Shown piece after piece: positions 39,690 through 64,000 of a stretch of DNA of 64,000 nt. Position 1 is the first letter of the stretch. Every line of letters begins with the position of its first letter. A program made the position numbers and the translations under genes. The stretch covers positions 340,651 through 404,650 of the forward strand of contig JBEPZY010000002.1 in the NCBI GenBank assembly GCA_041640595.1, given 5' to 3'. The stretch comes from Gemmatales bacterium (GTDB lineage Bacteria; Planctomycetota; Planctomycetia; Gemmatales; HRBIN36). The notes under the pieces are model-generated. The model did not search any database. It saw nothing but the letters and a program-made list of their open reading frames with translations, and was not told the DNA's origin.

Positions 39690-40400
39690 CTTGTGAATGT
39701 GCGTTTGTGCATCGCAAAAATCGCCATTCCTCCGGCACACGGTCGTTGTAACAACGCCAGGAGCGGGGGGCGTAAGCCCCCCGTGGGAAACTATCGCTCT
39801 CCTCGGCGAGAATCGCACTTCTGCAACGGCGTCCGTACATGCAAGCTGGACCGGGGGGCGTAAGCCCCTCGTGGAATACCCTCCGCATGCGAACTCGAAA
39901 CGGGCAAATTCATCGCATTGCCGCTGCAGACGCGGTTTGCAAACCACGGCGGGCTGAGGTGCGCGGCGTTGGGCGAAAGCATTCGCAATTGCAACGGCGT
40001 TACTCACACCCACGGCGGGCTGACGCCCGCCGCTCTTGATTGTGTGCGCGCCGGTCGGGGCACAATGCTTGATTTTCACGCTACGGCGTTCGTATCACCG
40101 ACCACGGCGGGCTGACGGTCGCCGCTCTTGTGGATATGCGTTTGTGCATCGCACAAATCCGTTATTCTTCCGGCATACGGTCGTTGTAACAGCGCCAGGA
40201 GCGGGGGGCGTAAGCCCCCCGTGGGAAACTATCGCTCTCCTCGGCGAGAATCGCACTTCTGCAATGGCGTCCGTACACGCGATCATGAGCGGGGGGCGTA
40301 AGCCCCCCGTGGGAAGAGTATCGCCCTGATCGGCGAGAACACCACATTTGCGAAAACGACCGCACGTGGACCACGAGCGGTCGTGGTAAGCCCCCCGTGG
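39690..40400. repeat. REP/BIME-like mosaic array 6
   Basis: Same palindrome; internal duplication 39700-39875 vs 40135-40312; modules shared with arrays 1, 3, 4 and 5. Confidence 0.9.
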
Positions 40401-40725
40401 GAAAATTAGCCCGCCGCGGATGGGAAACGATCTTTGCGTAGGTCAACAGCACCGTCTCCCTGGCAGACCGTGGAGAAATTACCCCATCGCGGATGGGAAA
40501 CGATCTTTGCGTAGGTCAACAGAGCCGTCTCCCCCGGCCGACCGTGGAGAAATTACCCCATCGCGGATGGGAAACGATCTTTGCGTAAGTCAACAGCGCG
40601 ACCTCCCTGGCAGACCGTGGAGACATTACCCCGCCGCGGATGGGAAATGATCCTTGCGTAAGTCAACAGCGCGACCTCCCTGGCAGACCGTGGAGATATT
40701 ACCCCATCGCGGATGGGAAATGATC
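40395..40725. repeat. 73-bp tandem repeat, ~4.5 copies
   Basis: CCGTGG anchor at 40395, 40468, 40542, 40615 and 40688; unit CCGTGGAGAAATTACCCCATCGCGGATGGGAAACGATCTTTGCGTAGGTCAACAG... Confidence 0.93.
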
Positions 40726-40799
40726 GTCTCTGCTGCAAGGGGCGAGGAGCGCTCCCTTTTACTGTGCCGCGATGTGAAAGACCGTATTGTCTTGGCCGA

Positions 40800-41175
40800 C
40801 CGGGGACCCAGGTTATAAGCGCAGCGGCTTAGCATTGTTCGCTGGCCCCTGCATATTACGAAATCTAGAGATGTCAGGTTATAAGCGTAGCGGGCTAGGA
40901 TTGCTCGGCCGTAATGTCGAGGCCATGTTATATTGCTCGACGGGGACCCAGGTTGTGAGCGCGGTGATAAGCCTGAAGAGCTGCCATTGGTCGACCACAA
41001 TCGGGAAGTCGTGTTATCTTGTTCGAGGAGGGCCCTTAAGAACGCCGCCGGTCGCTATAACATCAGCACGAAGTCGTGTTATCTTGTTCGAGAGAGGCCC
41101 AGGTTATAAGCACGGCAAGGTAGCATTGCTCCACCGCCAGTGAGCAGTGGTTTTATCTTGCCCGAACGGGCCCGT
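40800..41175. repeat. highly degenerate ~65-75 bp-period repeat
   Basis: CAGGTTATAAGC at 40809, 40875 and 41100 (variant at 40949); GAAGTCGTGTTATCTTGTTCGAG at ~41005 and 41070. Confidence 0.7.
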
Positions 41176-45968: not shown

Positions 45969-47264
45969 TTATTCTACAAGACTCAGGCTGCGTGTTCGAG
46001 CCACCTGGCTTTCCACCCAGTCCACGATTAACTCGCCGTTACCGGTGAGTACAATCTGCGAAGAGATGACCTGCGTAGCAACCAGATTGCCCGTGCCATT
46101 GCCGACAAAACGGGTTGTGCCGTGGGCGGCATAGTAGGCGCCGCGGATTTGCAAGTTGCCGTTGCCGCTCACACTGATCGCGTTGGTCGCATCCCGGCGC
46201 TGGTAGAAGACAAGCCCCTGATAAGGCCCGGTAGTCGGGGCACTGATTTCGACGCGTCCTAAGCCGGAGATGTTGATATCGTCCGCTGGCGAGCGCGGAT
46301 CGTTATAGATAAGGACATTGTTGCCGATCAGGTCTCCCTGACCGGTGCTTTGAAAGCCACCCCCTTGCAAATAATAGATGCCCGGCATCAAGGTAACGTT
46401 GACCTGGCCACTAATACTGATGCCCCCTATATAAACGCCCGGTTGCAGAGTTACATTACCGCTGCCACTTAATCGCAGAGTTTGCCGGCTGCGTATCGGA
46501 AGTGAGTTCGGATTCGGTGGCGGCAAATAAGCAAGCGGATCGGGAACCGGAGTCTGTCCGCTGGTGATATTGCCACGGAAAGCCCCGCCGCCTGTCGTCG
46601 AATAACCAGGCGTGCCACTGAAATAAAAATTCGGCGCAGTTACCGACGCATTGCCGACAGCGAGTGCCCCAGCAGAATCGCCAGAATTGACGTACACTCC
46701 GGCTCGGCGCACATCGGCCCTGGCGTTGCCAACGGCATTCAAGGTGGCTCGACCATTCGGATTGAGTACGATGAGACCGCCCTGGACAGCGCTCCAGCGA
46801 CAGCGAGCGACGGCCCTTGCGGCTACCGATAGAGCTTCCGAGCTGAATATAGAACTAAACATTCGTTGCTGCGGAGCACGGATGATCACCTCGGCATAGC
46901 CGGGTTTCCCGGCACCTAATCCAGAGCGTGGCGGAATATAGACCTCGACTGTGCAACCATTAGCCGAAGAATAACCAGCCCGCGCCGCTAAGTCTAACGC
47001 AGCCGCCCGAGCTGCGCCGCTAGCATCTAATCCTCCATACTGAGGATAGTACCTATACAATTCGACCGCGGCTGCCAGTGCCGCAGCATCAGCGGTTGCC
47101 TGCACCCGACGCCGCTGATCGAGTAAGACCCCCCCATCGGTAACAAAAGCTACCGCACCCAACACAGGTACCATCGTCACGGCGGTCAACACCGCTACTT
47201 GCGCCCGTCGCCGCCACGCTAAATTGCAAAAATAGCCGAGAATCTTATAGCCTATCCCGGCCAT
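45969..47264 (-). CDS. TadG-like pilus assembly protein with beta-helix C-terminus
   Basis: RRRAQVAVL-TM-DGG...QATADAAALAAA; start uncertain (47291 or 47264). Confidence 0.82.
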   Translation of the reverse strand: MAGIGYKILGYFCNLAWRRRAQVAVLTAVTMVPVLGAVAFVTDGGVLLDQRRRVQATADAAALAAAVELYRYYPQYGGLDASGAARAAALDLAARAGYSSANGCTVEVYIPPRSGLGAGKPGYAEVIIRAPQQRMFSSIFSSEALSVAARAVARCRWSAVQGGLIVLNPNGRATLNAVGNARADVRRAGVYVNSGDSAGALAVGNASVTAPNFYFSGTPGYSTTGGGAFRGNITSGQTPVPDPLAYLPPPNPNSLPIRSRQTLRLSGSGNVTLQPGVYIGGISISGQVNVTLMPGIYYLQGGGFQSTGQGDLIGNNVLIYNDPRSPADDINISGLGRVEISAPTTGPYQGLVFYQRRDATNAISVSGNGNLQIRGAYYAAHGTTRFVGNGTGNLVATQVISSQIVLTGNGELIVDWVESQVARTRSLSLVE

Positions 47265-47315
47265 GATTGCTCTCCGGTATAGATGTTGCATCTAATGTAG
47301 ATATAGATGGCCCAT

Positions 47316-47786
47316 CTAATAATGCATCGGGCTGACGGAAGTGCTACTGAGGGTGATGCCGCCGAGGAAAGCCTCCGGTATCCAGCGATAGCGCACCGTG
47401 ACCGTAACGGTATTGCCCACCGCTACCACTTCGTTGTTGCGCACCTCGACGCGATACGGGGCAGGGCTGGTACTCCAGGTAACCTGACACTGCAACTGAC
47501 GGGGATCCAGCCCGATAGCGCGAGGGAGAATGACCCGTTGCAGGATATCGTTAGCAGTCGGGAGTGGTTGAGCGTTTTCGCGGGCATAATCCGCTCCGTG
47601 GACGGCTGCCCATCGCGATGCCTCTCGAGCCAGAGCGGCTACCTGCAGGTAGCGGTACACACCAAAACTGCCGACGATGAGTCCCAGCAACAACAAAAAC
47701 ACAAGCGGGGCCACCAGAGCAAACTCTACTAAAGCAGCCCCTCGACGCTGCTGGTCTAAGATAATCGAAAAGCGCGCGACGCACAT
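47316..47786 (-). CDS. TadE-like pseudopilin
   Basis: RRGAALVEFALVAPLVFLLLLG...AREASR. Confidence 0.88.
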   Translation of the reverse strand: MCVARFSIILDQQRRGAALVEFALVAPLVFLLLLGLIVGSFGVYRYLQVAALAREASRWAAVHGADYARENAQPLPTANDILQRVILPRAIGLDPRQLQCQVTWSTSPAPYRVEVRNNEVVAVGNTVTVTVRYRWIPEAFLGGITLSSTSVSPMHY

Positions 47787-47801
47787 GATTGTCTGGCCTT
47801 A

Positions 47802-48239
47802 CTATTGAGGTGCCGCCGGAGCTACGGGCATACGGACCCGGCGTTGCAGAGCCACACGGTTGGGAATGCCTGGATAGTTAGCCAGTGTCTCGAAGGTCCA
47901 GGCGGCGGTAACCACTATATAAGTCCGAGCGCTGCTGTCAGTTTCGTAGCGCCACGTGATCTCCGGTGCGGGTCTGATATCGGCCGCTTCAGCTAAAGCA
48001 GCGTCGCGGATGGACGAATAAGTCAGAGCCAGCGGCGAATAAGGATCGCTACCGTAAAGAGCACCGCTTCGGGCACAGTTTACGAGAATTTGCGAATAAT
48101 AAAAAATTCTTCCGTAATCTAAGGCCACTATGAAGAGAAACATCAGCAGCGGCAGGACTAACGCTAGCTCTACCGTCGCGGTAGCCGGTCGTTGTTTTCG
48201 GCGTTTAGTGTGCATGGTTCTAGCCCTCGAGGCAAGCAT
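47802..48239 (-). CDS. TadE-like pseudopilin
   Basis: ATATVELALVLPLLMFLF...DYGRIF...ARSGA. Confidence 0.86.
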   Translation of the reverse strand: MLASRARTMHTKRRKQRPATATVELALVLPLLMFLFIVALDYGRIFYYSQILVNCARSGALYGSDPYSPLALTYSSIRDAALAEAADIRPAPEITWRYETDSSARTYIVVTAAWTFETLANYPGIPNRVALQRRVRMPVAPAAPQ

Positions 48240-54564: not shown

Positions 54565-55080
54565 TTACTTCGGAATTCTGGTGGCAATTACGTAACAAAC
54601 AGGTGGCGAGCCCTTGTCCCAGTTGAACGTAAAATTCTTGGGTGTTTCACGGACTGCAAGCTTGCCTTGCGGATAAAAAGCGATCACCAGCTTATCTTCA
54701 ACAAACTTATAAATGGCCTTTAAATAAACCTTCTCCTTATCCCGCAACTCCAACCGCGCTGGCTTCTCTTCGGGATAAGAACTCCAGATTAGTTCCTTTT
54801 CCACCCGTTTCGCAGCATAGTGTCCGCACAGGAAAAAAGTACCGTCTTTTTTGAACGTACAAAAGCCTACTCCAAAAACTAAATAATCTGGGTCCAGTTT
54901 GTCCTCTGGGCAGCAGTTGACCACGCTGTCTCTGAACCACCAACTACCAATGAGGTGTTCATCTAGCATTGGTTTGCTTATCCTGTCTTCTCCTGGCAGC
55001 ACGCTACAGGCGATTACGACCATTAAAAAGCTTGTCACAAGGCTCCCCACTAGCGATACACGTCCAAGACGGATTAACAT
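54565..55080 (-). CDS. TIGR03067-like exported/lipoprotein, putative immunity
   Basis: Signal with VIAC; LIGSW...TFKKDG...KPARLEL...KAIYKFVEDKLVIAF...PKNF; AAGGAG RBS. Confidence 0.68.
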   Translation of the reverse strand: MLIRLGRVSLVGSLVTSFLMVVIACSVLPGEDRISKPMLDEHLIGSWWFRDSVVNCCPEDKLDPDYLVFGVGFCTFKKDGTFFLCGHYAAKRVEKELIWSSYPEEKPARLELRDKEKVYLKAIYKFVEDKLVIAFYPQGKLAVRETPKNFTFNWDKGSPPVCYVIATRIPK

Positions 55081-55118
55081 TGGAAGTCTCCTTATCCAGG
55101 TCTGAGTGTGCTTATTGC

Positions 55119-55646
55119 CTATTGCTTACCACCCTCGCCAGGGACGCGGCGATAAATCACAATTTCCGGCTGACCCATGCGAATATAGTCGTCAATATCT
55201 TTAGGAAAGTCTGAGGGGCGTTTATCTTCTGGTTTGTTCAAGACTTTTTCCCACAGGTAGCAGTTATCCAGGAAACACAGAAGTTCCACAACTTCTTTTC
55301 GTCTATCGTTTTTCACCTCCAGTAAGAGGTAGAACTTCTGCTCGCCTAACTCCTTGATGGAGTATTTACCGGTTTGGTTGAAAAAGGCAGGATCCGAGGT
55401 CTTGCATGTAAAGGTGCCATCCTTTCTCAGAATCAGCCAGGCTTCCACCTTTTGGGGTGTGTACGGCACGCCTCCGGAGAACACAGCCGCATCGAAAAGC
55501 ACCCGCTCCGCCCGCCAAGTGCCGATAACCTCGTTCCGAGGCTCGGCCTCTACCCACAGTATGCCCAGTAGCCCTAGCATCGCTACCAAAGATGGTCTAA
55601 TCAGGAGTCCAAATGTAGCGGCGCGATTGGCGTACATGCTTTCCAC
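55119..55646 (-). CDS. lipocalin/TIGR03067-like exported protein, putative immunity
   Basis: Hydrophobic N-terminus; VIGTW...LRKDGTF...GKYSI...KRPSDF; starts 4 bp after the upstream stop. Confidence 0.62.
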   Translation of the reverse strand: MESMYANRAATFGLLIRPSLVAMLGLLGILWVEAEPRNEVIGTWRAERVLFDAAVFSGGVPYTPQKVEAWLILRKDGTFTCKTSDPAFFNQTGKYSIKELGEQKFYLLLEVKNDRRKEVVELLCFLDNCYLWEKVLNKPEDKRPSDFPKDIDDYIRMGQPEIVIYRRVPGEGGKQ

Positions 55647-58345: not shown

Positions 58346-59437
58346 TCATTCTTTCATACGCTGCCAAGGTTCACCCGTCCGCACATCTAAGAGCATAATA
58401 CTGTCAAAGACAATGCCGTCGCTGCCCGTCCCTACGGCAACCACGAAGTCGCCTGGTTTGAGGCTGCAACCACTGCAACTCCACGACTTAGACCATACAA
58501 CTTTCAAACGCTTGAGATCGTACAACGTGACTAGATTGGAATTCCAGACCACCATATAGGAATCCATCCCAGAACAAAGCACCTCAATAGCCGCGCGGTG
58601 ACTGATACCCTGAATTAGTGTCGAGCCAAGAACTTTGCCCTTTCGCCAATCCCACCATCGAAGTTCTCCAGTAAAATCCAACGCAAGCAGAACCCGATCA
58701 TCTGGTGTAAACGCTAACGCGGTGATACAGTCGTCTCCATCTGCCAGGCCGTCAGCAGTGAGCTTTCCCGTGCGTAGGTCGAGGACGTCTATTAGTTCCC
58801 CGTCCGATATAGCGAGATAGGCCCCATCATGAGAAAACGCACTTACCGGATAAGGCGGCCCAGGCATGCTCGTGCGATGCTCCTTGATTACCCGGCGAGT
58901 GCTGATATCTAAGACGACACAACTGATACCTTCCCAATTCTCAGTACGAGCGACGACAGCTGCGTATTTGCCGTCGGGAGATAGAGATAGTCGAAAGGCC
59001 GCGCGTCCACGCCATACAATCTCCGGCTGCGCGTGATTATCTCTTATAAGGATTGAGTAAAGCTTTCCTTCTGGGGTAAAATACAGCAATTGTCCCCGCG
59101 ATTGGGGCACCCAGGCGAACCCACAACGCTGTGCCCGCTCAGCATAGCGTTTCTCAAGCACGCCGGCCCGTGGGCCATTCCGGACTTCATAGTATTGATC
59201 CAGCACAATCTCTCTGACCGGTCGCCAGTTGCGTGTGTCACACACGAGAACAGTTCTATAGAGCGTATCACCGAAACGGCGTGTGGTTGTCATAGCTAAA
59301 TATTCGCCGTCTTCTGAAAATCTCGGATCACTTATCCACTCTCGGCGAAGAAACCAGAGACAGGAGTCGTTTCCAAAAATGATTGGCTCTTTATAAAGGA
59401 GCGCCATTGCCAAATATATAGCATATGCGATCGCCAT
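58346..59437 (-). CDS. exported WD40/beta-propeller protein (partner of cassette 59506-60006)
   Basis: AGGAG RBS before ATG 59437; FSEDGEYLA, LSPDGKYAA, FSHDGAYLA, ITALAFTPD...LRWWD. Confidence 0.82.
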   Translation of the reverse strand: MAIAYAIYLAMALLYKEPIIFGNDSCLWFLRREWISDPRFSEDGEYLAMTTTRRFGDTLYRTVLVCDTRNWRPVREIVLDQYYEVRNGPRAGVLEKRYAERAQRCGFAWVPQSRGQLLYFTPEGKLYSILIRDNHAQPEIVWRGRAAFRLSLSPDGKYAAVVARTENWEGISCVVLDISTRRVIKEHRTSMPGPPYPVSAFSHDGAYLAISDGELIDVLDLRTGKLTADGLADGDDCITALAFTPDDRVLLALDFTGELRWWDWRKGKVLGSTLIQGISHRAAIEVLCSGMDSYMVVWNSNLVTLYDLKRLKVVWSKSWSCSGCSLKPGDFVVAVGTGSDGIVFDSIMLLDVRTGEPWQRMKE

Positions 59438-59505
59438 GTTGGTCTCCTGTGATGGTTGGTTCCATATCTTTTCCTGTCCAGACACTTCTGAAGTTGTCCC
59501 GAATT

Positions 59506-60006
59506 CTAGTTCCAGCCCCACTCCGGCTGCGGTTTAGCCTTGGGAGGCGGCTTGAGGGTACCTAAATGTTCGTATGCGATCCGAGACGTGCCATCGGGCT
59601 GTGTATAGTACACCTTCACTTGTACGAACCAACGCGTGCCATCCCATATCGGTGCCACCAGGTTGGCTTGTAATGTAGCAGTACCACTCAACGGCCCATT
59701 CGGCTTCCAGTCTAAGTCTGGCTGCCCGCCGCCTATCGCAACGCGGGTAATTGCACTTCCATTTGGCACGGCTTGAAGCGTGACCGAAAAATTGTCACCC
59801 TTATTACCAGGAATCGCCACAGGATTCAGGACGACCTTGCCCCGGAGTGGGCGTGGCGCCTGCCGGGCAGGTCTACCCGGTAATTGCATCGCCAGAAGAT
59901 TAGCTACATTGAGCGGCGGTGGCCCGACTTGCCGTTCGCCTTCCGGCGGTTGTTGCAGCATCTGCGTACGGGCGGATTGGTAAGTTGGCTGGACCTTTAC
60001 TTGCAT
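59506..60006 (-). CDS. orphan C-terminal cassette: QMLQQPPEG junction plus beta-rich tip
   Basis: YQSARTQMLQQPPEG matches the 61426-62358 cassette at protein and DNA level. Confidence 0.72.
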   Translation of the reverse strand: MQVKVQPTYQSARTQMLQQPPEGERQVGPPPLNVANLLAMQLPGRPARQAPRPLRGKVVLNPVAIPGNKGDNFSVTLQAVPNGSAITRVAIGGGQPDLDWKPNGPLSGTATLQANLVAPIWDGTRWFVQVKVYYTQPDGTSRIAYEHLGTLKPPPKAKPQPEWGWN

Positions 60007-60242
60007 TTTGGTTCAATCAAGTACGCCATTATTCTGTAAGACCCTAGCCTGTATCTTTATGATTCGAAGGCCATCTGCTGGACATCCAGTCATTTATCTG
60101 GTCTTCAGAGAAGTCCCCAGACCTGCGGTTCAGTCCCTTAGCACTACCTTGACCTGCCGAATCCATGCTTTACATTGTTCTCGCCTTGGGGACATTTTTG
60201 TCAAGTATTCGTCAAAATAGACCTAAATAACGCATTAGGGTT

Positions 60243-61361
60243 CTATCGTCGCAGAACAACTGGCTTAGCACTCCATTGTCTGGTCACCACGTCTATGCTT
60301 CGCAGTTGCAATCCGGCCTTGGATTGAATTAGCAGAGCACCCAGGTCTCCACGTTGATTTGTTGTGAACCGAGAAATCGCGCCCTCATCCGCCACCTGCT
60401 CTCTGAAAGAATGAGACCAGACCGGGCGAATAGTGGCTCCACACTCCAAAATTACAACATCCCGATCATCGTATAGTATTAACTGCGGTTTGTCGCCCTT
60501 TCTCAAGTACCGGAGATCAAGTGCGCCCCGAGGCGACAGCTCCACCGTTCCTAGTTCTGTACGATTTCCTAGGTCAAAAAAGTGTATAGTACCGTTGCGG
60601 TGCGAGCCGGCCAACGTCTTTCCGTCAGGGCTGAACGCTAAAGAGAAGTAATCGCCACTTGAATCCGCTTGCGACGCCAGTTCCATTGCTCCTTGGTGGG
60701 GCGCGGCTAAGTTGTAGATGAATATAGAATCGTAATCTGTAACTGCTAGCAGGTTGGAACAATCAGAGAAGCTACACGCCGGAGGTATTTGCGAGCGCAC
60801 AGAAAGGCTATTAATATGCAACACTTGTTTCCTAGAAGCAACCTCTAAAACCTGGACCCTGTAATCTTCTCCCGCCGCGTCCCAGGACACTAACGCCAAA
60901 TACTTGCCGTCTCGACTATATACCAATCTAATAACGGGCAAATTTAGGGAATCAACCATGACCCGTGCCTTTTGATTTTTTAGATCAACTTGCCAGAGGC
61001 TTTTTCTCTTCGATCCGTAAACGAGTGTATCAGGATTAGCCGGGTCCCATTCCAGGCCGACCAGACACTTTCCCTGGTGAACATCAACCGCGTCCTTGAA
61101 TATGCATTCCCCTGTCGTCGTGGAAAATACCAAAACTGTTAAATCGGTTACAGAAGGCAATTCTTGCCCTTGCTTGTGCTGCCACAAGGACTCGACAACG
61201 GCTAACAGCTTCCCGTCCTGGGACAGCTTAGGAAAATCAAAGAAACGCAGTTCAGCTTGTCTGCTGAATAGAGCACACCCATCTTGACTAAAGTTCAATC
61301 CTAGCCAGACGCCACAGGCCACCACATAGGCGCAGCATCGGATAATCGGGGTCATACGCAT
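60243..61361 (-). CDS. exported WD40/beta-propeller protein (partner of cassette 61426-62358)
   Basis: Signal-like N-terminus; LSQDGKLLA, YSRDGKYLA, SLAFSPDGKTLAGSHRNGTIHFFD. Confidence 0.84.
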   Translation of the reverse strand: MRMTPIIRCCAYVVACGVWLGLNFSQDGCALFSRQAELRFFDFPKLSQDGKLLAVVESLWQHKQGQELPSVTDLTVLVFSTTTGECIFKDAVDVHQGKCLVGLEWDPANPDTLVYGSKRKSLWQVDLKNQKARVMVDSLNLPVIRLVYSRDGKYLALVSWDAAGEDYRVQVLEVASRKQVLHINSLSVRSQIPPACSFSDCSNLLAVTDYDSIFIYNLAAPHQGAMELASQADSSGDYFSLAFSPDGKTLAGSHRNGTIHFFDLGNRTELGTVELSPRGALDLRYLRKGDKPQLILYDDRDVVILECGATIRPVWSHSFREQVADEGAISRFTTNQRGDLGALLIQSKAGLQLRSIDVVTRQWSAKPVVLRR

Positions 61362-61425
61362 GAGAGTCCCCCCAGAAATTGGACCCGTTAATTCTATTCG
61401 CTCACCAGCCTCGTGTCTTGACGAG

Positions 61426-62358
61426 TTATGGCCTTCGGATTATCTGTCCATAGCCAAATTGGATGGAACCATCGGGTGCCATGATTGTGACTTTGACGTC
61501 CCAGCCCCAGGTATTTCGTGGAAAGTCGGGAAAATACCTACCTAAGTCCACAGCAGGTCCAAGCCCATTCCCCTGCACTGTCACTTGTATTTGTCCTTGT
61601 CCCTGTCCGTTGAGTTTAACGCCCCTGGGAAAATTGAAGTGCGCCTGGTTTGCACCGGTTATATTGACATCTATGATTTCCCCTCCAGGCACTCCGAGGC
61701 TTATGCTGATATTATAATTTTCGCCTGCTCGACCTGTGCCTGTCCCTGGATTTATTGTCACTTTCGCCCTCGGTATCCTCTTGCGTTGCTGAGCAACCAT
61801 TACCACCGATGCTAGCGCCTCACCAAAAACCGGCTGGGGTTCCTGATTACGCGGACCTTCCGGCGGTTGTTGCAGCATCTGCGCGCGGGCGCGCTGATAG
61901 GCGTCCCAGGCTTCGGTTTCCCTCTCCGTCCAGTCTCGCAGGGCGTTGTTGCGAGCTGTCTGGAATGCCGCTTCCAGGATTTGCCGTGTGTGCCCCAGTT
62001 GGAAGTTGAGTTCGTCCAAGCGTTCTAAATATTGATTCCAGGCCTGCGAATCCGCCTGTATATAGGTGGACTCCGCCGCATTCATCGCCGCCTGCCATTC
62101 ATCATACGCCGCCTGCACTGCCTCTGCTCGCGCCGCTCCCGCCTGATCTAATGCAGTGTAGTATGCGGCGTAAGCCTCCGCCTCTTCATTAGCGTATTGC
62201 TCGTCTTGATACGAGTCTGCCAATCGCGCATCCCGCCTGGCTGCCGCCTCTGCATAGGCCTGGTCGCGCATGGCAGTGGCATACGCAATAGCATTGTCTA
62301 AGTCTTGCTGAGCTTGCTGATACGCCGCATAACCACCGGCATCATCGGCATGTTCCCG
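61426..62358 (-). pseudogene. 5'-truncated Ala/Tyr/Gln-rich helical stalk plus QMLQQPPEG junction plus beta-rich tip (orphan cassette)
   Basis: Frame open 29 codons upstream of ATG 62271 (REHADDAGGYAAYQQAQQDLDNAIAYATA) to TAG at 62359-62361, with the same composition as the ORF body. Confidence 0.72.
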
Positions 62359-62422: not shown

Positions 62423-62785
62423 TCACTGCCTTTGTCCTTGGATTCTGGCCAGATACTCGCGGAATCGCTCCAGCACATGCTCCAGCCAGCCTATTGCAGT
62501 GTAGCCGTCGGCGCTGGGAAGATAATGAACACCCATGCTCTCGACCGGGTACCAATCATCTTTCTCTGGATGCTTCGATAAATACTCACGTGAAAAAGCT
62601 AAGTATTCTTCCAGCTGGTTGAGCACCTTCTGGACGTACTCCGGGCTGGTGTTGCTCAAGAACGCGTCTATCGCGCCTTCGGGTGAGCCGTAGTCGTCCA
62701 TAAAATCTTCGTGGAAATAGCCACCAAAAAACTGCCACAGTTCTGGCCATCTGTTTGTGCAATAATCATCAAGGCGCATTTCCAT
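62423..62785 (-). CDS. CdiI-like immunity protein (partner of the RNase A-fold toxin)
   Basis: WPELWQFFGGYFHEDF...AIDAF...WLEHV; AAGGAG RBS; directly downstream of the toxin; no signal peptide. Confidence 0.85.
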   Translation of the reverse strand: MEMRLDDYCTNRWPELWQFFGGYFHEDFMDDYGSPEGAIDAFLSNTSPEYVQKVLNQLEEYLAFSREYLSKHPEKDDWYPVESMGVHYLPSADGYTAIGWLEHVLERFREYLARIQGQRQ

Positions 62786-62813: not shown

Positions 62814-64000
62814 CTAAGGATCAATATATGCAGTTTGAATTCTGAAGCCTAACGCAGATTTCGAATCCCTAAACAGCACAACTCTAACCTTATGTCCCCC
62901 CTGCAGCTGGCTAGCACCCCTGGCAAGCACCTGCCCAACAGGTTCTGAGAATTGTGTTTGGAGGGCCAGTGAGCGAGCCTCCTGGCCGGTTTGGCGCAAC
63001 CAATCGGCAATTTTGTCAGCATGTGCCTCCAGGACTCGGGCGATGTAATTCTCCGCTTCGTCCAGTGAACGAAAAGTACTGACTGTCGGAAGGTTTGGCT
63101 CTGCTTCCAAACGCTGGAGCAACTCCCTCAGGGACTTGCCCACGTGTTTTGAGATGGTATGCCCGCCAAGACTCTCGTGATAGAGTAAACCACTTTCATG
63201 CCCAAAAAATCGTTTGAGCCACTCCTTTTTGAGCTGGCCTGGTGTAGTGAACAGACGCCGGGAGAACATGAAACGATCTTCTAGCCCGGCGGGAAGCCGT
63301 GGCCCAACTCGGGTGCCGAGTATCACATTTCCATCTCCGGCTATCACCCACCGCCGACTGGCGTTAGCAACGTCGGAGGCGCTTTCCAGCGTCAGGGCTC
63401 CAGCACCCTTGCCTGCCGCTGATACGACAGATCCTTCGCCAGCAAGCAGCAAGTGGCGGGTGGGAGCAGTAAGGTCGTAGGCACGATGCAGGGTTATCGC
63501 TTTAGCACTGGAGTAAAAACCTGCACCCATGGATAGTCCTATATCTGTATATATGGCTGCCCTTTCAGCATGCTCAGGTGGCAGCACGAACTCGTAGCCG
63601 TAGCGCAACGCGCTCTGGGTAAACGTCTCGCGGTCCTTCCCATCTAGCATATTGCACCAGCCAGTGCGCAAGTTGTCCCAACCGTGAAACACCAGAAATG
63701 TCCCTGCGCCTTTCGTCGTCAGGCTCGGGTCAGGCGAAAGTATAAGTCCAGCTCCTCCAACCACTTCCAACGCACCTCCAACCATCATTAGTCCGTTTAC
63801 CACGTACCGGCGAATCCACGCCCGTACTCCCCCTGACTGGGCCGGCGTCGCACTTATCACTAAACTCATACCTATGGGGTAATAATCAATGTGCGAGTTA
63901 GAATCCTGCTCGCTAGTAGTATTCTGACTGCATGAAGTTTGCGCATGACCAAAGCTATCCTGGACAGGTAACAACAAATCCGCGGTCGGCATCTGCGACT
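62814..64000 (-). CDS. polymorphic toxin C-terminus: Gly-rich hydrophobic pre-toxin segment plus bacterial RNase A-fold (CdiA-CT-like) domain; frame open at the window edge
   Basis: GGALEVVGG...PDP..TTK...HGWD pre-toxin motif; HESLGGHTISKHVGKS...LLQRL...STF...PVG...VRVVL...IQTAY. Confidence 0.86.
   Translation of the reverse strand, partial: SQMPTADLLLPVQDSFGHAQTSCSQNTTSEQDSNSHIDYYPIGMSLVISATPAQSGGVRAWIRRYVVNGLMMVGGALEVVGGAGLILSPDPSLTTKGAGTFLVFHGWDNLRTGWCNMLDGKDRETFTQSALRYGYEFVLPPEHAERAAIYTDIGLSMGAGFYSSAKAITLHRAYDLTAPTRHLLLAGEGSVVSAAGKGAGALTLESASDVANASRRWVIAGDGNVILGTRVGPRLPAGLEDRFMFSRRLFTTPGQLKKEWLKRFFGHESGLLYHESLGGHTISKHVGKSLRELLQRLEAEPNLPTVSTFRSLDEAENYIARVLEAHADKIADWLRQTGQEARSLALQTQFSEPVGQVLARGASQLQGGHKVRVVLFRDSKSALGFRIQTAYIDP

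What the first reader, a model, noticed from the sequence alone, without database searches (positions are those of the whole stretch)
58346..62358. Two paralogous 'beta-rich tip + exported WD40 propeller' pairs sharing an identical 28-bp junction
Seen: CCTTCCGGCGGTTGTTGCAGCATCTGCG is identical at 59939-59966 and 61856-61883 (encoding QMLQQPPEG), after which the DNA diverges. The two ~120-aa tips are still distant homologues (KV.(I/L)NP....G..G(E/D)N(Y/F)...I..V.I.G...VKV....PDG(S/T)) with no obvious catalytic motif, and each is followed by its own diverged ~365-aa propeller with a hydrophobic N-terminus. Inference: co-diversifying ligand/receptor pairs acting outside the cytoplasm, either a new envelope-acting toxin with beta-propeller immunity or a non-toxic kin-recognition code swapped via the junction.
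Basis: partly seen in the sequence, partly recalled or inferred. Interest (0 to 1): 0.82.

Follow-up and report, generated by a model that had tools for sequence, protein, structure and literature searches.

The report
Swappable Ig-tip and WD40 partner cassettes
In a likely planctomycete bacterium, two spare end-pieces of a gene with swappable tips each encode a small antibody-like domain followed by its own beta-propeller protein that is predicted to bind it, likely an antidote to a non-enzymatic toxin acting outside the target's cytoplasm, a pairing I found described for no bacterial toxin system.

Summary
The 28 bp (34 of 36 when extended) is not a dedicated site: it is the end of a conserved helical stalk shared by many cassettes. 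Both pairs are orphan cassettes of a polymorphic-toxin-type array; the same array holds an RNase A tip with CdiI_2. The carrier is an N-terminal LExR motif, Ig repeats, a stalk and a variable tip; the stalk was found in 17 of 267 genomes of the order and 0 of 400 others of the phylum. Related contigs show tips swapped at this slot. Both tips model as Ig-like sandwiches without conserved catalytic residues. Tip B and its WD40 are predicted to bind (0.75; best control 0.14); non-cognate propellers were not tested. dN/dS is 0.09 and 0.18. The pairing is not exclusive: other WD40s follow unrelated tips, one subfamily WD40 lacks a tip, and a distant tip precedes a TIGR03067 gene. Best reading (0.55): non-enzymatic envelope toxin with exported WD40 immunity. 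Rival (0.25): non-toxic recognition pair. Toxicity is untested. Nine literature searches and three scan look-ups found no description. New variant of a known kind.

The parts
62814..64000 (-). Neighbouring cassette: RNase A-type toxin tip; its frame runs on beyond the window through a stalk remnant (G000:C2:405191-403467)
   Evidence: PF18431 RNAse_A_bac E 5.7e-29, weak DUF4225 E 0.0028; frame
62423..62785 (-). CdiI_2 immunity gene, no hydrophobic N-terminus
   Evidence: PF18593 E 1.1e-16
61884..62358 (-). Stalk remnant of cassette A: Ala/Tyr/Trp-rich long helices; no signal, no ribosome-binding site before the first ATG
   Evidence: 86% nt identity over 492 bp to the intact parent on C8; helices 4-47 and 52-159 in the model
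61856..61891 (-). Junction copy A, 3' end of the stalk (ARAQMLQQPPEG)
61426..61855 (-). Linker, short helix and tip A (Ig-like sandwich, core 61429-61782)
   Evidence: model pLDDT 72.6 overall; best match Z 8.1, rmsd 2.7, 96 aligned, to a bacterial adhesin Ig domain 5irb
60243..61361 (-). WD_A, 372-aa WD40 propeller with hydrophobic N-terminus; partner of tip A
   Evidence: same pair in L035 and L036
59939..59974 (-). Junction copy B; only about 7 stalk codons are kept upstream of it
59506..59938 (-). Pre-tip motif (PPPLNVANLLAMQ) and tip B (Ig-like sandwich, core 59527-59856)
   Evidence: model pLDDT 83, seven strands; best match Z 8.2, rmsd 2.6, 85 aligned, to 5c92, then IPT/TIG domains; dN/dS 0.09 against L033
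58346..59437 (-). WD_B, 363-aa WD40 propeller with hydrophobic N-terminus and AGGAG before its start; predicted binder of tip B
   Evidence: dN/dS 0.18 against L033
55650..58181 (-). Further orphan: He_PIG repeats with an unrelated tip, a fragment of a second carrier whose relative lies on C3
   Evidence: PF05345 E 3.3e-29; 96% nt identity to C3 stretches
54565..55646 (-). Two small genes with hydrophobic N-termini after that tip; the second has a weak TIGR03067 match
   Evidence: E 0.0011, below cut-off; first gene

Best explanation
These are two orphan cassettes of an array with swappable tips, each encoding an Ig-like domain that likely acts as a non-enzymatic toxin in a rival's envelope and a likely exported WD40 propeller that is predicted to bind it and would neutralise it. 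Shown: a carrier gene (LExR motif, Ig repeats, helical stalk, variable tip) is intact on contig C8 and broken upstream of the window; the cassettes keep only the stalk's end; different tips replace each other behind that end in related contigs. Inferred: homologous recombination in the stalk loads an orphan tip onto the carrier, which is displayed outside the cell; the tips are silent until then, while the propeller genes are translated. Predicted: one face of the propeller grips the basic first and last strands of the tip. Speculative: with no catalytic set, membrane helix or translocation segment, the tip would act by binding and blocking an envelope protein of the target.
For: Same array holds RNAse_A_bac plus CdiI_2. 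The genome has other LExR+He_PIG carriers ending in a CDI-type nuclease (PF21111 E 2.3e-14) or a HINT-like region (by eye). The stalk slot carries M35 peptidase tips in relatives (PF14521 E 5.4e-9). Swaps: in L036 the spacer after WD_A leads through the junction into an unrelated tip and partner; one lead peptide is fused to three tip types; a contig in run X3 joins the stalk straight to tip B, skipping cassette A. Shine-Dalgarno-like sequence stands before both WD genes and CdiI, not before the two tip ATGs, the orphan pattern of Poole 2011. Of 30 hand-picked partner genes, 25 have a hydrophobic N-terminus; the 5 without follow 4 nuclease-type tips and 1 unknown tip. Complex: 0.75, best of 3 controls 0.14, contacts agree 84%, partner pLDDT at least 82; mark reached by 116 of 157 solved and 2 of 215 mismatched pairs. 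WD D212 contacts tip R52; both are invariant in their alignments. Purifying selection on both genes of pair B.
Against: No toxicity shown. Invariant tip residues are mostly G, P, V, I, L, R, N, T; the only invariant acid (D138) is not kept in the distant G099 tip. The fold is a generic Ig sandwich and Z near 8 is common. The slot also carries adhesin-like tips: a PMP beta-helix, a repeat propeller and tandem beta domains, and these too have exported partners, so an exported partner does not mark a toxin. No intact carrier bearing tip A or B was found; the one carrier with a distant Ig tip (G099) is frameshifted. In two DNA runs the 5' end of WD_A is joined to another upstream sequence (loose end at 61369). 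The complex controls did not include another WD40.
Confidence: 0.55

Rival explanations
1. A non-toxic recognition code: the displayed Ig tip is a ligand and the exported WD40 its receptor on kin cells, giving allele-specific adhesion or signalling, swapped by the same cassette machinery.
For: Ig fold resembling adhesin domains; no catalytic set; adhesin-like tips occur in the same slot with exported partners. Between B-type and G003-type tips the predicted interface is 12 of 33 identical against 42 of 70 elsewhere (Fisher p 0.034), while within the B type it is 79-100% identical.
Against: The propellers have no C-terminal membrane or cytoplasmic part and no shared lipobox (by eye); no signalling gene seen in the arrays read. 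Carrying several receptors from orphan cassettes fits immunity better than a self code. The interface contrast also fits toxin/immunity specificity, and surfaces diverge faster than cores anyway.
Confidence: 0.25
2. The tip is a cryptic enzyme or the binding half of a larger toxin, with the WD40 as immunity or as an export and folding chaperone.
For: R52, R55, N61, N115 and R125 are conserved in most of the 14 tips aligned. WD40s also follow tips with cysteine-peptidase-like motifs in G017 and G226 (motifs read by eye).
Against: No match to an enzyme's catalytic domain among the top structural rows or by sequence. The conserved arginines lie largely in the predicted partner interface. No longer fused form found (weak evidence).
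Confidence: 0.12
3. Decayed leftovers: tips are stray Ig repeats of carriers and the WD40s are unrelated members of the genome's many propellers.
For: The local carrier is broken; G017's tip has a stop and a frameshift; a subfamily WD40 in G002 has no tip upstream; carriers contain Ig repeats anyway.
Against: dN/dS 0.09 and 0.18; tip followed by a subfamily WD40 in 7 of 7 close-family loci with the next gene visible; this WD subfamily scores 102-1264 within itself and at most 80 to four other cassette WD40s; predicted complex; tips do not hit He_PIG or Big_9.
Confidence: 0.08

Closest known systems
CDI and Rhs systems with orphan CT/immunity modules (Poole et al. 2011, PMC3150448; passages read)
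   Same: Array of tip/partner pairs behind a carrier gene; orphans keep variable lengths of the constant region, lack translation signals, and swap between strains near a conserved pre-tip peptide.
   Different: No CdiB or filamentous haemagglutinin or RHS repeats seen in the carriers; carrier is LExR + Ig + helical stalk; most partners are exported; these tips have no recognised toxic fold.
Polymorphic toxin systems as catalogued by Zhang et al. 2012 (PMC3482391; passages read; first 300,000 of 354,187 characters held)
   Same: Constant N-terminal trafficking part, variable C-terminal tip, downstream partner; LRR and HEAT partners are listed there.
   Different: That paper states that immunoglobulin and beta-propeller domains had not been found among immunity proteins; the held text has no hit for WD40 or Gemmata. 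This carrier was not among the passages seen.
Tse1/Tsi1 of Pseudomonas aeruginosa (PMC3391265; abstract start and passages)
   Same: Periplasmic immunity protein with a propeller-like fold.
   Different: Tsi1 is a three-sheet partial propeller against an enzyme delivered by T6SS; here a full-length WD40 pairs with a non-enzymatic Ig domain.
Myxobacterial TraA and Proteus Ids self-recognition (TraA: abstract start of PMC5562445; Ids: recalled)
   Same: Allele-specific recognition through variable surface domains, the model for the rival reading.
   Different: No homology tested or seen; here ligand and partner are separate adjacent genes in a toxin-type orphan array.
IPT/TIG and E-set Ig domains (galactose oxidase C-terminal domain, plexin/Met IPT, invasin and intimin Ig domains)
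   Same: Fold of the tips (Z 7-8); a TIG-labelled cluster is the nearest Atlas hit for the G099 tip (0.89, lead only). That several of these pack against propellers is recalled.
   Different: Identity 7-18%; no Pfam family reaches its cut-off; here the domain is a swappable terminal tip.

Membership tests
Polymorphic toxin system with orphan cassettes | Constant N-terminal carrier with interchangeable C-terminal tips | tested here: met
   C8 carrier and carriers in relatives share the stalk and differ in tips
Polymorphic toxin system with orphan cassettes | Array of orphan tip/partner pairs that keep part of the constant region and lack start signals | tested here: met
Polymorphic toxin system with orphan cassettes | Exchange of cassettes between strains | tested here: met
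   L036, L032, P0026/27/29/31 and the joint in X3
Polymorphic toxin system with orphan cassettes | Recognised toxin/immunity domains in the same slot | tested here: met
   RNAse_A_bac + CdiI_2 behind a stalk remnant; M35 peptidase tips
Polymorphic toxin system with orphan cassettes | Tips A and B are themselves toxic and neutralised by the cognate partner | not testable with these tools
   Only a predicted complex for pair B
CDI (CdiBAI) | Two-partner secretion domain, haemagglutinin repeats and VENN motif in the carrier | tested here: not met
   Carriers hit only He_PIG, Big_9, cadherin-like or SdrD_B domains; a genome-wide search for cdiB was not run
Rhs | RHS/YD repeats in the carrier | tested here: not met
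   No RHS family in the carriers scanned
WD40 beta-propeller | WD40/propeller profile matches along the chain | tested here: met
   17 and 18 Pfam families at E up to 1, nearly all propeller models, best 9e-10 and 4e-23, most below curated cut-offs; blade number not determined
Exported (Sec-type) partner | Cleavable signal peptide | tested here: inconclusive
   Hydrophobic N-terminal segment only; no signal-peptide predictor available; WD_B lacks a basic n-region
IPT/TIG or bacterial Ig Pfam families | Sequence match above the family cut-off | tested here: not met
   No hit for tips A or B; Big_1, Big_7 and Big_3_5 at E 0.02-0.03 for the G099 tip only
IPT/TIG or bacterial Ig Pfam families | Seven-strand Ig-like sandwich | tested here: met
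   (predicted models)
Planctomycete extracellular N-terminal signature (LEPR-XLL / Planc_extracel; names recalled) | Profile match of the carrier's LExR motif | tested here: inconclusive
   The motif is visible in carriers and in 23 frames of the genome, but neither library reported a matching model
Kin-recognition ligand/receptor | Surface display of both partners and allele-specific, non-lethal response | not testable with these tools
   No signalling domain seen in the propellers

The most novel reading that the evidence does not exclude
A planctomycete polymorphic system has turned part of its toxin slot into an antibody-like recognition code: swappable Ig tips read by allele-specific WD40 propellers, either with no killing at all or as non-enzymatic blockers whose immunity propeller is a decoy of an envelope propeller in the target. 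Part of the lineage's many exported WD40, LRR and TIGR03067 proteins would then be partners in such arrays.
Probability: 0.3. Interest if true: 0.85.

Novelty: new variant of a known kind. Interest (0 to 1): 0.62.

Why it matters
It points to an undescribed carrier for polymorphic toxins limited, among genomes searched, to one planctomycete order, and to full WD40 propellers used as cognate partners, a fold that the 2012 catalogue said was absent from immunity proteins. A 110-residue Ig domain without catalytic residues kept under purifying selection in a toxin slot must either harm cells by binding alone, which would mark a vulnerable envelope target, or serve non-lethal recognition. Either is testable with two small genes. 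It also offers a function for some of the many orphan exported repeat proteins of these bacteria.

Tried and rejected
Search for longer proteins holding tip A: none among 617 candidates (weak evidence). Profile search of 1.84 billion representatives: 3 true tip clusters among 19 hits; I read 5 of the other 16, all long repetitive surface proteins with partial matches, and set them aside. Two weak genome hits (E 0.002-0.006) were not followed. Pfam, PADLOC and PDB sequence searches named no family for the tips; NCBIfam was run only on the G003 tip (none). Atlas: no usable hit for tip B. Foldseek gave no E below 0.001 for tip B. The stalk's fold matches are generic long helices; no delivery mechanism could be read from them. 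The WD-subfamily search returned only the four genes already in the query, with 7 candidates scored per genome, so it is close to circular. A collection-wide scan with the stalk alignment could not run. Two RNA libraries hold contigs of the region, but these do not show transcription. Idea of a site-specific 28-bp recombination site: rejected, since break points differ (59885 in L036) and no recombinase gene was seen in the arrays read. C8 tip versus G003 first tip: not significant (E 0.069). Cognate versus non-cognate complexes could not be compared: one job only. No supplements were read; those of Zhang 2012 may list such carriers.
Full report
Observation. The 28-bp identity, its translation, the homology of the two tips and the two propellers with hydrophobic N-termini are all in the sequence. 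The repeat extends to 34 of 36 nt. WD_B most likely starts at ATG 59437.

Setting. The window is G000:C2:340651-404650. From about 54,000 on, GC falls from about 0.60 to 0.48-0.54. That the organism is a planctomycete of the Gemmatales type is my inference from gene content (TIGR03067 genes; the LExR motif); earlier scan notes say the same. Of the 20 runs listed as holding the stretch or part of it, most are labelled hot spring or microbial mat. On the minus strand the order is: a broken carrier start (C2:407313-406504), a third WD40, stalk remnant + RNase A tip, CdiI_2, stalk remnant + tip A, WD_A, junction + tip B, WD_B, a He_PIG fragment with another tip, and two small exported-looking genes. 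An intact 800-codon carrier lies on C8, 87% and 86% identical in DNA to the broken start and to the stalk remnant, with a different tip and partner and a further orphan behind it.

What the junction is. It is the 3' end of the stalk and occurs before unrelated tips on C8 and in relative G003. In L036 the spacer behind WD_A matches the window at 96% down to 59885 and then enters an unrelated tip and partner. The lead peptide of tip B's frame is fused to three tip types among the 14 proteins. Laid contigs show depth several times higher at the stalk than in the cassettes, a joint from 59982 to 61906 in one of four runs, and loose ends at both junction copies. So tips are exchanged, at more than one point; recombination in shared stalk sequence is the inferred cause.

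The carrier family. A stalk profile matched 17 of 267 genomes of the order (4 in the own genus, 13 of 252 in the other family, two of them weak) and 0 of 400 other genomes of the phylum. I read 20 regions from these. Carriers have an LExR motif, He_PIG, Big_9 or cadherin-like repeats, the stalk, a proline-rich linker and a variable tip. Tips include M35 peptidases and a PMP beta-helix (Pfam) and, by motifs read by eye, cysteine peptidases, a lipase-like hydrolase and repeat propellers. Partners include WD40, LRR and TIGR03067 proteins. In a hand-picked set of 30 partners, 25 have a hydrophobic N-terminus; the other 5 follow 4 nuclease-type tips and 1 unknown tip (three classes are my labels, two of the nuclease cases come from stalk-less carriers on C3, and G033's stalk hits are weak).

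The tips. Both model as Ig-like sandwiches. Best structural matches are E-set/IPT and adhesin Ig domains at Z about 8, a level the tool calls common. The family is small: 3 clusters among 1.84 billion representatives, 2 of 267 genomes at strong E-values. Two distant candidates sit in the same slot in G099 and G017 (hhalign probability 70%; 0-6 of 500 shuffles reached the G099 scores). No conserved Cys, His, Ser or Glu exists. Tip B and WD_B have dN/dS 0.09 and 0.18 against L033; the pair A comparisons are too close to judge.

The pairing. In 7 of 7 close-family loci with a visible next gene (window A and B, G003, L032, L033, L035, L036; L031 and L034 dropped as duplicates; tip B of L035 is cut by the contig end) the tip is followed by a WD40 of one subfamily, but these are only three pair types. 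Tip and propeller identities fall together (0.82/0.68, 0.53/0.36, 0.33/0.27), as linked genes would. The complex of tip B with WD_B scored 0.75 against a best control of 0.14; runs agreed in 84% of contacts, partner pLDDT at least 82; this mark was reached by 116 of 157 solved and 2 of 215 mismatched pairs, roughly applicable here. Contacts are spread over the propeller's length, which suggests one face; they are acidic on the propeller and basic on the tip in all rows. No like complex turned up by sequence. The tool warns that close cousins also pass, so specificity is open. Against exclusivity: G002 has a subfamily WD40 without a tip, G017's distant tip precedes a TIGR03067 gene, other WD40s follow unrelated tips, and WD_A's 5' end has another neighbour in two runs.

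Mechanism. Shown: cassette architecture, exchange, selection. Predicted: folds and the B complex. Inferred: export of propellers, silence of orphan tips, display on the carrier. I commit to a non-enzymatic envelope-acting toxin with WD40 immunity (0.55), because the slot holds true toxins, orphans with translated partners are how immunity arrays look, and the propellers have no output domain. The recognition reading (0.25) stays alive because adhesin-like tips with exported partners share the slot.

Literature. Nine searches found no description of this carrier or of WD40 immunity to an Ig tip; the library lacks most subscription papers. I read passages of PMC3482391, PMC3150448, PMC3391265, PMC8567305, PMC4452313 and bioRxiv 2025.11.11.687626; the last three gave nothing on this system; no supplements were read.

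Verdict. Real, selected, and part of a known kind of system, with a new carrier, a new tip family and an unusual partner fold. Interest 0.62.

Noticed in passing
L017:750-2105 (G003:C45) and L036:2070-3540: A beta-rich tip and its own partner look weakly homologous to each other (26% over 100 aa, E 6e-4): a possible self-similar tip/partner pair.
   Followed up: partly
G000:C3:561713-570448 and C3:425941-420369: Two more LExR + He_PIG carriers without the stalk: one locus with a CDI-type nuclease tip and an LRR partner, one 1698-codon frame with a HINT-like region and a terminal tip.
   Followed up: partly
G000:C2:407500-407313 (upstream of the window): The broken carrier has a longer CA dinucleotide run near its start than the C8 copy, and an insertion at the LExR motif; the run could allow phase variation.
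   Followed up: no
L018:11188-13787, L080:439-4009, L082:1-3764: A second tip family with a WCADW motif and a later His (cysteine-peptidase-like, by eye) is followed by WD40 genes in three loci of two genomes; L082 has two WD40 genes in a row.
   Followed up: partly
window 40007-41174: Several families of short direct repeats with spacing 65-92 bp (D1-D4, D6, D7, D13), REP-like; similar repeats lie upstream of the carriers.
   Followed up: no
window 45969-48239 (minus): TadG/TadE-like pseudopilin genes, read by eye from the translations.
   Followed up: no
L023:1-500 (G003:C41): CRISPR-like repeats right behind a decayed stalk/He_PIG region.
   Followed up: no
G000 genome-wide: 23 frames carry the LExR motif near their start; many continue into repeat-rich surface proteins.
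   Followed up: partly
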